Shown: positions 47,601 to 49,377 of the stretch, in pieces | How the letters are laid out: each line of letters starts with the position of its first letter | Position numbering within the stretch: position 1 is the stretch's first letter | From: Stegostoma tigrinum | Taxonomy: Eukaryota | Assembly: GCF_030684315.1 (NCBI RefSeq) | Contig: NC_081394.1 | Coordinates: 2,666,001-2,730,000 of the forward strand | Length of the DNA: 64,000 bases | Reading direction: 5' to 3' | Notes under the pieces: model-generated | The model's database searches: none | The model's input: only the letters and a program-made list of their open reading frames with translations | Told to the model about the DNA's origin: nothing | Translations under genes and position numbers: made by a program

Positions 47601-49377
47601 TTTTCCCAAGGAATCCCCAGAGATCAACGCTACCTACACTGTAAGTAGAGCTCACGTACTAATTCACGCGCAACGTCAATTGAACCTAACATTATCGAGG
47701 GAGCAGTAAATCTCACTTATGATCATTTCCCACAGAGTGTGAACTTAGGGGAACAGTCGGTGTACAGTGACCTAAAAAGGTAGGATTCATGCTGTTTCCT
47801 CAAGCGTCAAACAATCAACCTATAATAGAAATCCATCCTGCTAAACATCCACCTTCATATCATGTATCTCTCAATTTATGTGCGAAATGTCTGTTTAATA
47901 GCTAACAGTTTATCTATNNNNNNNNNNNNNNNNNNNNNNNNNNNNNNNNNNNNNNNNNNNNNNNNNNNNNNNNNNNNNNNNNNNNNNNNNNNNNNNNNNN
48001 NNNNNNNNNNNNNNNNNNNNNNNNNNNNNNNNNNNNNNNNNNNNNNNNNNNNNNNNNNTATCTGTCCATCTTCATCTGTCTACCTATCTATCTATCTACA
48101 TCTATCTCTACATATCTCTATCTATCCAGCTATGTATATCTATCTCTCGATCTCTATCTATCTATCTATCTATCTTTGTCTATCTCTATCTATCTATGTA
48201 TCAATTTTTATCTATCTATATCTATCTATCTAAAAAACAAAAGAACTGTGGATGCTGTAAATTAGGAATAAAAATAAAGTTGCTGGAAAAGCTCAGCAGG
48301 TCTGGCAGCATCTGTGGAGGAGAAAACAGAGTTAACATTTCGGGTCTGTTGACCTTTCCTCAGAACTGATGGTATGTATGTGTGTACCTATCTATCTATC
48401 TATCCATATCTCTCTGTATATGTATTCATCTATCCATCTGTCTGTCTGTGTATCCATCTATCTATCTTTCTCTATCTGTCTAATTATCTATATATGTATC
48501 TATCCATCTTTCTCTAGCTTTCTTTCTATCTATCTATCTGCCTATCTGTCTATCTCTATCTATCTATGTATCTATCTTTATCTATCTATATTTATTTGTC
48601 TATCTATCTATCTCTATCTCTCTATATCTATCTATGTATCTGTCCATCTTCATCTGTCTACCTATCTATCTATCTTTCTATCTCTATCTATCTATCTATC
48701 TATCTATCTTTATCTATCCTTCTATCTATTGATCTATCTCTCTATCTATCTACATCTATGTATCTGTCCCTCTTTCTCTATCTATCTATCTGTCTTTCGA
48801 TCTGTATGTATCTATCCATCTTTATCTATCTGTATCTATCTATCTGTGCATTCCATATAAAAACTAAACGATCCTCTAAATCAGGAACAAAAACAGAAGT
48901 TGCTGGAAAAGCTCGGTAGGTCTGGCAGCATCCGTGAAGAAACTGGTCGGAGCTAATGTTTTGTGTCCAGTGACCCTTCTTCAGAAGGGTCCTTCCTATT
49001 CTGAGGAAGGGCCACTGGATTCAGAATGTTAGCTCCGATTGACCATTCACGGATGCTGCTAGAACTGCTGAACTTTTCCAGCAACTTCTGTTTTTATCTA
49101 TTGATCGATCTGTCTATCTATATCTATCTATCTATTTATCTATCTATCTATTAATCTATCTATCTATATCTATCTATCTATGTGCCTATCCTCTGTGTTA
49201 TCTGTTTATCTTTCTATCTTTGTATCTATTGACGCATCTATCCAGCTAACAGTTTGTTCAACCATTTCTGTATAACAGCTGTTTTAAATCCTTTATTCCG
49301 ATATATTTATACAGATTATGTTTGTTTATTTTGCCGATTTTGATCCTGGGTCTGTTATGCTTTTATTTTCCAGGTGA
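14838..49377 (+). CDS. Complete multi-exon nectin/PVR(CD155)-family Ig-superfamily receptor (leader-IgV-IgC-IgC-TM-cytoplasmic ITT+ITAM), 402 aa; join(14838..14907,17234..17572,21205..21498,31982..32099,35471..35622,37233..37343,44202..44248,47611..47640,47736..47779,49374..49377)
   Basis: All nine introns are GT..AG with matching phases (1,1,1,2,1,1,0,0,2); the joined 1209 nt reads open to TGA. The V domain has the PVR-family submotifs ITQ, (A/V)X6G (VVYNLKYG) and LFP in CEITLFPQG. The third Ig domain is split over two exons as in nectin genes. Confidence 0.88.
15305..15715 (-). mobile_element. Non-LTR retrotransposon RT C-terminal fragment (CR1/L2-group); second copy at 39690-40510 (-)
   Basis: KAQVR..MEY.P and [14 protein letters not shown] remnants in shifted frames. 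Confidence 0.7.
16815..17115 (+). mobile_element. Old CR1 3' end directly upstream of the + strand V exon
   Basis: gggccacagtctc..agactgagatgagga.gaatttcttctctc..ggctgaatggccta pattern. Confidence 0.7.
17234..17572 (+). CDS. Exon 2 of + gene: nectin-type IgV domain
   Basis: Acceptor tgtctttcgatag|TT, donor CTAG|gtatgt, 339 nt, phase 1-1; LPC..ITQFSW..DGSIRI..DEGNYTC..LFPQG V-set pattern. Confidence 0.95.
17608..18810. repeat. Long degenerate (TG)n microsatellite, partly N
   Basis: Direct reading. Confidence 0.95.
18810..19207 (+). mobile_element. Penelope-like element 3' end/pLTR
   Basis: Matches 43100-43455; includes CTGAAGAAGGGGCCTGGCCCGAAACGTC. Confidence 0.8.
19207..20000. repeat. Degenerate telomere-like (CCCTAA/CCCTGA/CCCTAG)n interstitial array
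   Basis: Hexamer periodicity, e.g. ccctaaccctaacccgaaccctaaccctaa. Confidence 0.85.
21205..21498 (+). CDS. Exon 3 of + gene: nectin-type IgC domain 2
   Basis: Acceptor ttttatctctgacag|TG, donor CTCT|gtaagt, 294 nt; [17 protein letters not shown]...[19 protein letters not shown] is typical of nectin domain 2. Confidence 0.93.
21748..23345 (-). mobile_element. 5'-truncated Penelope-like retroelement (RT C-terminal half + GIY-YIG endonuclease + pLTR), frameshifted, inserted in a SINE 52-bp array
   Basis: [30 protein letters not shown]....CGFLYIG.AKRRL GIY-YIG motif. Confidence 0.9.
23346..23700 (-). mobile_element. HE1/V-SINE-like tRNA SINE with about 4 copies of the internal 52-bp unit (continues at 21680-21747)
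   Basis: The - strand shows cggtggctcagtggttaac A box, gggttcaatccc B box and ctgtctgtgtg.agtttgcacattctcccc V-domain. Confidence 0.8.
23954..28195 (-). mobile_element. Near-full-length decayed CR1 LINE: ORF1 (27175-27927; Zn-finger/coiled coil + SGNH esterase), ORF2 in pieces (APE 25948-26832; RT 24059-25920), (ATTGTCT)n tail
   Basis: ORF1 [70 protein letters not shown]; 5' boundary approximate. Confidence 0.93.
28405..29302 (+). mobile_element. CR1 3' fragment with a nested CR1 3' fragment of another subfamily (about 28692-29052)
   Basis: [20 protein letters not shown]; host sequence breaks at aagggacct and resumes at gggcctgaggggcaactttttc. Confidence 0.8.
29708..30230 (+). mobile_element. 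HE1/V-SINE-like element with about 7 tandem 52-bp units
   Basis: A/B boxes, then repeats of gggatgtgcaggttagggtggattggccgtgctaaattacccatagtgccca. Confidence 0.85.
30295..30745 (-). mobile_element. CR1 3' fragment
   Basis: [17 protein letters not shown]. Confidence 0.85.
31982..32099 (+). CDS. Exon 4 of + gene: first half of Ig domain 3 ([14 protein letters not shown]...[15 protein letters not shown])
   Basis: Acceptor ttttctttgtag|AT, phase-2 donor GG|gtacgt; matches the nectin Y-P-V-I-GYD..W...C...ANP-P..Y-W pattern. Confidence 0.92.
33445..33662 (-). mobile_element. HE1/V-SINE-like element (others at about 21036-21135, 32810-33015, 38700-38905, all -)
   Basis: tRNA-like head plus V-domain. 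Confidence 0.8.
34506..35272. mobile_element. About 770-bp fold-back element (second Penelope-type family) inserted in a CR1 3' fragment (34065-35425)
   Basis: Arms about 34508-34825 and 34903-35241 are reverse complements; flanking duplication acagcat(g/t)taaa. Confidence 0.75.
35471..35622 (+). CDS. Exon 5 of + gene: second half of Ig domain 3 (LPEGV...[13 protein letters not shown])
   Basis: Acceptor aatttgcaag|G is phase-compatible with exon 4; donor TCAG|gtacac; contains the second Cys (CEAAN.VG). Confidence 0.9.
37233..37343 (+). CDS. Exon 6 of + gene: transmembrane exon ([37 protein letters not shown])
   Basis: Acceptor ctgttttaaaag|GT, donor GCAG|gtaaat, 111 nt, phase 1-1; about 24 hydrophobic residues followed by the basic stop-transfer KKQR; no charged TM residue. 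Confidence 0.88.
37490..37950 (+). mobile_element. HE1/V-SINE-like element with about 4 copies of the 52-bp unit
   Basis: A/B boxes, array, CR1-like tail. Confidence 0.8.
38033..38544 (+). mobile_element. Penelope 3' fragment with intact hammerhead motif (38451-38483) and 9-bp target duplication
   Basis: ATGGGTAAC at 38024-38032 and 38545-38553. Confidence 0.8.
41025..43455 (+). mobile_element. Long Penelope-like retroelement (RT + GIY-YIG with internal deletion), one frameshift near 41950; inverted pLTR remnant upstream (about 40553-40810)
   Basis: [33 protein letters not shown]; the endonuclease segment is deleted relative to the 21748-23345 copy. Confidence 0.9.
44202..44248 (+). CDS. 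Exon 7 of + gene: cytoplasmic exon [16 protein letters not shown] (YxN/ITT-like motif)
   Basis: Strong acceptor ctttattccttcag|AG, donor CAG|gtcagt, phase 1-0. Confidence 0.78.
44710..46480 (-). mobile_element. Decayed Penelope-like element of a second family, with nested CR1 ends (45070-45460)
   Basis: [12 protein letters not shown] remnant; terminus ggtcagaaatcac.caaca..aggttatagtcc shared with the 34506 fold-back. Confidence 0.6.
47007..47255. mobile_element. Short palindromic element (third pLTR-like family); related copies at 48235-48370, 48880-49095, 60390-60470, 53630-53750
   Basis: gttgctggaaaagctcagcaggtctggcagcatctg...cagatgctgccagacctgctgagcttttccagcaac. Confidence 0.7.
47611..47640 (+). 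CDS. Exon 8 of + gene: [10 protein letters not shown] (first ITAM tyrosine)
   Basis: Acceptor cttttttcccaag|GAA, consensus donor ACT|gtaagt, phase 0-0. Confidence 0.82.
47736..47779 (+). CDS. Exon 9 of + gene: [14 protein letters not shown] (second ITAM tyrosine)
   Basis: Acceptor catttcccacag|AGT after a 95-nt intron; donor AG|gtagga; read-through would give AGG TAG, the same R-stop. Confidence 0.82.
47860..49245. repeat. Degenerate (TCTA)n field, partly N, in the last intron of the + gene
   Basis: Direct reading. Confidence 0.9.

What the first reader, a model, noticed from the sequence alone, without database searches (positions are those of the whole stretch)
47611..47779. ITAM split by a phase-0 intron exactly after Yx, as in dedicated signalling adaptors
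Seen: a 95-nt intron, tiny for this gene, falls between YT and SV. Known: in FcR-gamma (YT|GL), DAP12 (YQ|EL) and CEACAM3 (YE|EL) the ITAM is interrupted at this same position. Inference: this independently supports a genuine ITAM and suggests a two-exon ITAM module shuffled onto a nectin gene rather than a chance motif.
Basis: partly seen in the sequence, partly recalled or inferred. Interest (0 to 1): 0.7.

Follow-up and report, generated by a model that had tools for sequence, protein, structure and literature searches.

The report
Shark nectin receptor with CEACAM-type tail
The tiny intron is real and splits a predicted 'switch-on' immune motif at the textbook place; the motif ends a shark nectin-like surface protein that has a near-identical twin with a predicted 'switch-off' tail, and it likely came, as a block of small exons, from a CEACAM-type receptor gene on the same chromosome.

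Summary
Confirmed: a 95-nt GT..AG phase-0 intron (47641-47735) splits YT|SV, and one spliced contig joins exactly these ends. The split is the published rule for classical ITAMs, in CEACAM receptors as well as adaptors, so it is not adaptor-specific. The gene encodes a nectin/PVR-type V-C-C receptor with an uncharged TM, a YxN motif and Y-x10-Y. The first half-site reads YxxV here but YxxL in 4 of 4 other shark orthologues. A head-to-head twin, 98% identical outside, carries ITIM+ITSM in one unsplit exon; ectodomains group by species and tails by type. This scan noted that pair before in other shark genomes. New here: the module is three to four exons, not two. Its closest relative found ends a cysteine-less CEACAM-like gene 4.5 Mb away on the same contig (30/44 nt; [10 protein letters not shown] vs EQSVYSELKR). 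A second CEACAM-like gene and a single-V gene share the 44-nt phase 0-to-2 exon. Shark FCER1G and CD247 split their ITAMs likewise but are far less similar (13-16/44). Signalling, ligand and direction of transfer are untested.

The parts
14838..14907 (+). Signal-peptide exon of the ITAM-type receptor
   Evidence: exact mapping of P0008; phases
17234..17572 (+). Ig V-set exon with the canonical cysteine pair
   Evidence: Pfam V-set E 3.4e-15
21205..21498 (+). Second Ig exon (C2-set_2, nectin/CD80 type)
   Evidence: Pfam PF08205 E 6.3e-16
31982..32099 (+). Third Ig domain, first exon
35471..35622 (+). Third Ig domain, second exon
37233..37343 (+). Transmembrane exon, no charged residue in the helix; skipped in frame in NCBI isoform X3
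44202..44248 (+). Cytoplasmic exon 1 (47 nt, phase 1 to 0) with YINI, a YxN motif of GRB2 type
   Evidence: loose end of the X2 contig
47611..47640 (+). Cytoplasmic exon 2 (30 nt, phase 0 to 0), ends on Tyr-Thr of the first ITAM half
47641..47735 (+). 95-nt phase-0 GT-AG intron splitting YT|SV
   Evidence: joint in the X2 contig
47736..47779 (+). Cytoplasmic exon 3 (44 nt, phase 0 to 2): rest of the first half-site, 7-residue spacer, YSDL
49374..49377 (+). Start of last exon: completes Arg, then TGA
   Evidence: loose end
53548..53569 (+). Alternative last coding exon (adds PIGIAK) in NCBI isoforms X1, X3, X4
   Evidence: not seen in the laid contig
8887..8938 (-). Signal-peptide exon of the head-to-head ITIM+ITSM twin (start codons 5.9 kb apart)
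   Evidence: mapping of P0007
388..726 (-). V exon of the twin (6 of 336 nt differ); the rest of the twin lies left of the window
16972..36664 (.). Span in which blocks of exon and intron DNA are 90-96% identical to the twin; ends about 0.6 kb before the TM exon
   Evidence: blastn

Best explanation
The 95-nt intron is spliced out and joins the halves of an ITAM-type motif in a shark nectin/PVR-like receptor that is likely the activating member of a head-to-head pair, and whose tail exons likely came as a cassette from a CEACAM-type receptor gene on the same chromosome. Shown: the exon structure, the splice, the twin with ITIM+ITSM, ectodomains grouping by species while tails group by type, and a look-alike cassette behind CEACAM-like and single-V ectodomains. 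Inferred from CEACAM3-type biology: ligand clustering would let Src-family kinases phosphorylate both tyrosines, Syk/ZAP-70 would dock, and YINI would bind GRB2. No adaptor would be needed, which fits the uncharged TM. Inferred: the inverted orientation lets gene conversion keep the ectodomain matched to the twin. The receptor would then answer a ligand, probably a microbial adhesin or viral attachment protein that uses the inhibitory twin, with activation. The direction CEACAM-to-nectin is inferred only from the wider published spread of this cassette in CEACAMs.
For: Splice. Motif N-x-x-Y-x-x-V-x7-Y-x-x-L; L at +3 and YxN in 4 of 4 other ITAM-type orthologues (Chiloscyllium, Hemiscyllium, Mustelus, Carcharodon). 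Pair: ectodomain identity 98% (this species) and 92% (Hemiscyllium) within species, 60% between same-type genes of the two species; tails 73% ITAM-ITAM across species, 31% ITAM-ITIM within. Tree: within-species ectodomain clades 100/99 and 100/97; ITAM versus ITIM tails 96/100. Conversion-like blocks include introns and stop before the TM exon. Cassette: a pattern built from this exon and the single-V neighbour gave 7 hits genome-wide against 0 in the control. Two hits are the design set, 4 lack a good acceptor and donor, and 1 is the tail exon of a gene with a Cys-less N exon whose best PDB matches are CEACAM1 (E 1.2e-4). That gene has TM, a YENI exon (phase 1 to 0), an exon ending YM, a 129-nt phase-0 intron, then GLKVQEQSVYSELKR: 30/44 nt identical, 14/28 at positions the pattern left free (p 0.008). 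It is the best hit for 4 of 4 ITAM-type nectin tails in 760 kb of CEACAM region (E 0.001-0.08). A second CEACAM-like gene has phases 1,0,0,2, an 84-nt intron and a 44-nt exon; the single-V gene has a 328-nt intron and a 44-nt exon. Adaptor ITAMs give 13-16/44 nt and 1-3/16 non-consensus residues, against 6/16, 6/16 and 4/16 for the three C53 relatives. All 19 listed matches to the CEACAM-like N exon lie on this contig. Four cytoplasmic exons, YxN and replacement of tail exons are published for CEACAM pairs (PMC2832619).
Against: No functional data. The first half-site here is YTSV, not YxxL/I, and Pfam ITAM does not match the tail. The distal SVYSDL also fits the ITIM consensus. Splice support is one contig of one run not recorded as RNA. 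The homology case rests on 44 nt, found with a pattern of my own design; the single-V gene is not above chance at free positions (10/28, p 0.2) and the second CEACAM-like exon is borderline (12/28, p 0.05). The upstream Yx exons differ in length (30, 39, 42, 42 nt) and match weakly (13/30 across the first half-site). The closest CEACAM-like exon has GA, not GT, at nt 45-46. The CEACAM-like gene models are my genomic predictions without RNA. TYROBP, CD3 and CD79 were not located, so 3 adaptor kinds are missing from the donor comparison. The family's ITIM half-sites look similar (YASLDL; YTSVNI in a nearby inhibitory gene).
Confidence: 0.68

Rival explanations
1. One reading: a two-exon ITAM was shuffled in from a dedicated adaptor gene (FcR-gamma, DAP12, CD3, CD79).
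For: 4 of 4 adaptor ITAMs found in this genome split at the same codon. DAP10, DAP12 and CD79a map to human 19q13 (PMC4536121, passage), the region that also holds CEACAM genes. The spacer YMGLNL of the Carcharodon orthologue resembles CD79a (recalled, not tested).
Against: FCER1G and CD247 exons match at 13-16/44 nt and none ends after 44 nt at phase 2. CEACAM-like and single-V receptor genes match better and share a YxN exon and the short intron.
Confidence: 0.1
2. The motif arose in place from the family's ITIM-ITSM tail by shortening the spacer, with introns gained later.
For: Half-sites resemble each other (YASLDL or YTSVNI against YTSVNL; TVYADIK against SVYSDLK). Both tail types start with a phase 1-to-0 exon.
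Against: The twin's ITIM and ITSM sit in one exon, so two intron gains would be needed at the very places used by unrelated genes. DNA around the distal tyrosine matches the twin at 16/32 and the CEACAM-like exon at 24/32. TM exons are 19% identical.
Confidence: 0.08
3. The cassette is a true ITAM by descent, but in this species the Leu-to-Val change makes it act as a single-tyrosine or inhibitory (ITAMi/ITIM-like) motif.
For: YTSV departs from YxxL/I while 4 of 4 orthologues keep L; SVYSDL fits S-x-Y-x-x-L.
Against: Spacing, both tyrosines, Asn at -3 and YxN are intact. Non-canonical ITAMs occur in CEACAMs, among them the phagocytic CEACAM3 (PMC2832619, Discussion). The distal half fits the ITIM consensus in canonical orthologues too.
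Confidence: 0.1
4. The shared exon layout is ancestral or convergent: many Ig-superfamily receptors of this chromosome inherited an old split-ITAM tail or evolved similar residues under SH2 selection, with no specific CEACAM-nectin exchange.
For: All classical ITAMs share the split (PMC4536121). The differences in the best-matching stretch are at third codon positions, as purifying selection on protein would give. Three different ectodomain types carry the layout.
Against: Canonical pvrl2l, nectin and PVR-like proteins among the hits lack an ITAM. Nine of ten residues are identical at the C-terminal end and both serines use the same codon families (TCN, AGT) in the two genes.
Confidence: 0.2

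Closest known systems
ITAM-bearing CEACAMs of paired receptors (human CEACAM3, dog CEACAM28, opossum and Xenopus ITAM Ceacams; PMC2832619 passages and Discussion part 1, PMC2110893 passages, PMC5112662 passages)
   Same: Four cytoplasmic exons; first YxxL split by a phase-0 intron; YxN motif upstream (marsupials, CEACAM20, Xenopus); inhibitory ITIM/ITSM partner in opposite orientation; ectodomain kept alike by gene conversion; TM and tail exons exchanged together.
   Different: The ectodomain is nectin/PVR type (disulphide-bonded V, C2-set_2 second domain), not CEACAM. The identity blocks span all three Ig domains and intron DNA, whereas the papers describe conversion mostly limited to the N exon region. 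No ligand is known.
Classical ITAM adaptors: FcR-gamma, TCR-zeta, CD3, CD79, DAP12 (PMC4536121 passages; dogfish CD79a PMC4034164 passages)
   Same: ITAM on two exons with the boundary in the first tyrosine module; 7-residue spacer; D/E/N at -3 (N here).
   Different: Adaptors have an acidic TM residue and pair with a ligand-binding chain; this protein has no charged TM residue and carries its own three-Ig ectodomain. Sequence match to shark FCER1G and CD247 is near background.
Nectin-1/-2/-3 and poliovirus receptor CD155
   Same: Best solved-structure matches over the whole ectodomain: nectin-1 E 6e-48, PVR E 5e-43. V-C-C layout; pvrl2l-like V exon 0.7 Mb away; tree places the shark clade with pvrl2l/PVR/nectin-2-like rows (94/91, not starred; outgroup labels partly from recalled tail sequences).
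   Different: No C-terminal xYV end as seen in the canonical nectin hits; ITAM and YxN instead; a lineage of its own (99/99) evolving in concert with an inhibitory twin.

Membership tests
Classical ITAM | Two tyrosines with a 7-residue spacer and D/E/N at -3 (consensus in PMC4536121) | tested here: met
   N-A-T-Y-T-S-V, 7 residues, Y-S-D-L
Classical ITAM | L or I at +3 of both tyrosines | tested here: not met
   First half has V in this species; met in 4 of 4 other ITAM-type orthologues. File as ITAM-like here, canonical in the orthologues.
Classical ITAM | Exon boundary splits the first tyrosine module | tested here: met
   joint; phase 0
Classical ITAM | Dual phosphorylation and Syk/ZAP-70 recruitment | not testable with these tools
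   needs cell assay
Transmembrane signalling adaptor (FcR-gamma, DAP12, CD3, CD79) | Acidic residue in the TM, no ligand-binding ectodomain of its own | tested here: not met
   TM exon has no charged residue in the helix; three Ig domains present
Nectin/PVR family (ectodomain) | V-set plus C2-set_2 plus third Ig domain, best matches nectin/PVR | tested here: met
Canonical nectin-1 to -4 | C-terminal afadin-binding motif E/A-x-Y-V (motif recalled) | tested here: not met
   isoforms end DLKR or GIAK; canonical hits end xYV
CEACAM family (this gene) | Cysteine-less N domain with best matches to CEACAMs | tested here: not met
   V exon has both cysteines and matches nectin/PVR; the feature is met by the gene at C53:7.21-7.24 Mb
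CEACAM-type ITAM tail cassette | Four cytoplasmic exons, YxN upstream, phase-0 split of the first YxxL | tested here: met
   against PMC2832619 passages; exon sizes and phases of the published alignments not seen
Paired activating/inhibitory receptors | Near-identical ectodomains, opposite tails, neighbouring genes | tested here: met
   98% ectodomain; ITIM+ITSM twin head-to-head
Paired activating/inhibitory receptors | Concerted evolution of the ectodomain | tested here: met
   2 of 2 species with both members sampled group by species; intron identity blocks
Paired activating/inhibitory receptors | Shared ligand, opposite signalling, expression on immune cells | not testable with these tools
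   no tissue, ligand or signalling data

The most novel reading that the evidence does not exclude
A YxN-plus-split-ITAM cassette of three to four small exons has been passed between unrelated Ig-superfamily ectodomains (CEACAM N domain, nectin/PVR V-C-C, an orphan single V) along one shark chromosome. It turned a virus-receptor-type nectin into an activating decoy that has been gene-converted against its inhibitory twin across galeomorph sharks. Here receiver and donor family can both still be read in one genome, and a turtle nectin-2 model with a similar tail hints that the graft happened more than once.
Probability: 0.4. Interest if true: 0.72.

Novelty: new variant of a known kind. Interest (0 to 1): 0.5.

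Why it matters
The split itself is textbook. The gene matters because nectins and PVR are entry receptors for several viruses in mammals (established knowledge), and I found no paper describing an ITAM-bearing nectin or a nectin paired-receptor system in sharks (searches; listings only; open-access library only). The CEACAM papers infer that ITAM tail exons came 'from an ITAM-encoding ancestor' and, in the passages read, name no source outside the CEACAM family. A cassette that can still be aligned between a CEACAM-like gene and a nectin-like gene makes the origin of activating paired receptors testable by comparing shark genomes, and predicts a microbial ligand for the inhibitory twin.

Tried and rejected
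No RNA holder was listed for the V exon; no inference drawn. Only the stretch 47300-47915 has laid-contig evidence; the other exon joints rest on NCBI models mapped to the genome. A DNA search with 47400-47900 found only the window itself, so no processed copy or recent donor was seen. Pfam ITAM does not match the tail, and a genome search with it gave only 2 weak hits, one a CD247 half and one a repeat. DAP10 family search: 0 matches. CD3 Ig families gave only weak hits that did not identify CD3. A CD79-type pattern gave 16 hits against 27 in the control, none with a good acceptor. CLPTM1 as a synteny marker lies on C51 and C2, not C53, so synteny with human 19q13 rests only on CEACAM-like and pvrl2l-like genes. 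Atlas search of the tail gave only scores up to 0.81; for the single-V protein only generic V-set clusters, using an isoform with a frameshifted tail. No counterpart of the nectin ITIM/ITSM exon was found in 760 kb of CEACAM region, so I dropped the idea that both tails came from a CEACAM pair. My first scan missed the single-V gene's module as a pair because its upstream acceptor is weak; it was found by hand. No structure or complex prediction was run, as neither would test a tail motif. The supplement of PMC5112662 with the Xenopus and opossum tail alignments could not be read; it bears on whether exon sizes and phases match the shark cassette.
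Full report
Observation. The sequence shows a 30-nt exon (47611-47640, [10 protein letters not shown]), a 95-nt GT..AG intron and a 44-nt exon (47736-47779). Of 4 public runs laid on 47300-47915, one (X2) has a contig that skips exactly 47641-47735. Its loose ends match the exon at 44202-44248 and the exon starting at 49374; the other 3 carry the genomic form. X2 is not recorded as RNA, but a contig lacking introns at three joints, with no second genomic copy found, is best read as a transcript. The gene's other 8 introns are 1.6-10.5 kb. A loose split-ITAM pattern alone is at chance level in raw DNA, so the pattern is not the evidence; splicing, position and conservation are.

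The gene. NCBI models named 'nectin-1-like' of Stegostoma tigrinum map exactly to the window: signal peptide, V, C2-set_2, a third Ig domain on two exons, an uncharged TM, and four cytoplasmic exons with phases 1, 0, 0, 2. Best solved-structure matches are nectin-1 and PVR. The tail holds YINI (YxN) and YTSV-x7-YSDL and lacks the xYV end of canonical nectins. ITAM-type orthologues occur in Chiloscyllium, Hemiscyllium, Mustelus and Carcharodon; 4 of 4 have L at +3 and YxN. Among 88 stored proteins with a TM and a tail of 10-260 residues, 13 had a loose ITAM; 7 of these are this gene or its orthologues. ITAM-type members were not seen in Heterodontus, Heptranchias or skates, but the search listed only the best 150 cluster representatives.

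The twin. A V exon 96% identical lies at 388-726 on the minus strand. It belongs to a head-to-head gene whose last exon carries ITYASL and TVYADI with no intron between or within them. Ectodomains are 98% identical here and 92% in the Hemiscyllium pair, but 60% between same-type genes of the two species; tails show the reverse (73% against 31%). Trees agree: ectodomains group by species, tails by type (22 and 15 rows chosen by hand). DNA blocks of 90-96% identity, introns included, run from just before the V exon to about 0.6 kb before the TM exon. Opposite orientation and gene conversion are described for CEACAM pairs (PMC5112662, passages). This scan had noted the same pair in other shark genomes; I had reached it on my own.

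The split. [quoted passage not shown] Figure legends in PMC2832619, PMC2110893 and PMC5112662 note the same phase-0 split in CEACAMs. Dogfish CD79a has phase-0 introns in its tail (PMC4034164, passage). In this genome FCER1G (YT|GL) and 3 of 3 CD247 ITAMs (YQ|PL, YS|KL, YQ|GL) split the same way, read from genomic splice sites. So the split supports ITAM ancestry but does not single out adaptors.

Search for a donor. About 140 kb to the left, a single-V gene (orthologues 'uncharacterized' in two sharks) has ..NSTYM, a 328-nt intron and a 44-nt exon ending at phase 2; the Hemiscyllium model also has a YKNV motif upstream. A pattern built from these two exons gave 7 hits in 3.2 Gb, against 0 for the reversed control. 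One new hit has a proper acceptor and an upstream Yx donor 129 nt away. It ends a gene at C53:7.21-7.24 Mb with a cysteine-less N exon matching CEACAM1 best, a TM exon and a YENI exon. It shares 30/44 nt with our exon, 14/28 at free positions (p 0.008), and EQSVYS-LKR with third-position differences only. In 760 kb of CEACAM region it is the best hit for 4 of 4 ITAM-type nectin tails tested. A second CEACAM-like gene at 7.01-7.02 Mb has N, IgC, TM, a YENF exon, an exon ending YT, an 84-nt intron and a 44-nt phase-2 exon. Adaptor exons match at 13-16/44. The short intron is thus a trait of the cassette (84, 95, 129, 328 nt). Weak points: 44 nt is little, the search was of my design, two of the three relatives are at or near chance at free positions, the upstream exons differ in length, and TYROBP, CD3 and CD79 were not found.

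How it likely works. Shown: structure, splice, pairing, concerted evolution, a look-alike cassette. Inferred from known ITAM and CEACAM3 biology: clustering, Src-family phosphorylation, Syk/ZAP-70 docking and GRB2 binding at YINI, giving activation without an adaptor. Inferred: a decoy role against microbes that bind the inhibitory twin, as argued for CEACAM pairs (PMC5112662, PMC13278318, passages). Direction of transfer is inferred from the spread of four-exon YxN/ITAM tails in marsupial CEACAMs and CEACAM20 and of YxN/ITAM tails in Xenopus (PMC2832619 Discussion part 1), against five galeomorph genera for the nectin form. My odds: splice real 0.97; activating in vivo 0.8; cassette homologous to the CEACAM-like tail 0.7; direction CEACAM to nectin 0.55; microbial decoy 0.5.

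Novelty. The split is known. Searches (listings only) showed no paper on ITAM-bearing shark nectins; PMC3628338 reports a skate CEACAM homologue and ITAMs in teleost CEACAMs (passages). One search found no earlier scan note on a CEACAM donor. Verdict: new variant of a known kind, interest 0.5.

Noticed in passing
window 61931-62059, minus strand: Last exon of another inhibitory-type gene (IVYTSV ... TVYSVL), converging on this one; its V exon is probably the one at G000:C53:2754178-2754519, and a TM exon occurs twice (C53:2745563 and 2737717), perhaps a tandem or assembly duplicate.
   Followed up: partly
G000:C53:2608166-2590727, minus strand (L019-L021): A third nectin-like V-C-C-TM gene whose last exon aligns with the ITIM/ITSM exon but has lost both tyrosines (FATL, NADV); skate relatives keep the distal one.
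   Followed up: partly
G000:C53:2552916-2571846, plus strand (L025-L023): Orphan single-V receptor with a split ITAM, conserved in three carpet sharks and annotated only as uncharacterized; no family assigned.
   Followed up: partly
G000:C53:6.72-7.24 Mb and 10.64-10.74 Mb: CEACAM-like cluster: 19 listed N-exon matches, all on C53; N exons 92% and 88% identical to the ITAM-type gene lie at 6745474 (+) and 10703559 (-), candidates for a CEACAM pair; their tails were not resolved.
   Followed up: partly
protein P0137 (painted turtle nectin-2-like isoform X4): Nectin V and C domains joined to a TM and a tail with YENL and YQTL-x7-YEEL: either an independent nectin-ITAM graft or a model fused with a neighbouring gene.
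   Followed up: no
window 37233-37343 and the twin's TM exon: NCBI models skip the TM exon in frame for both genes (P0010, P0001), predicting soluble forms.
   Followed up: no
L044 (G000:C59:9570052): Shark FCER1G has a second exon ending Tyr-Glu at phase 0 upstream of the ITAM; an extra exon giving a second ITAM is reported for Xenopus FcR-gamma (PMC4536121, passage); the exon between was not identified.
   Followed up: no
proteins P0041/P0178 (Carcharodon) and P0035 (Mustelus): ITAM-type relatives with fewer Ig domains (V only; V plus third domain), the latter with a truncated tail.
   Followed up: no
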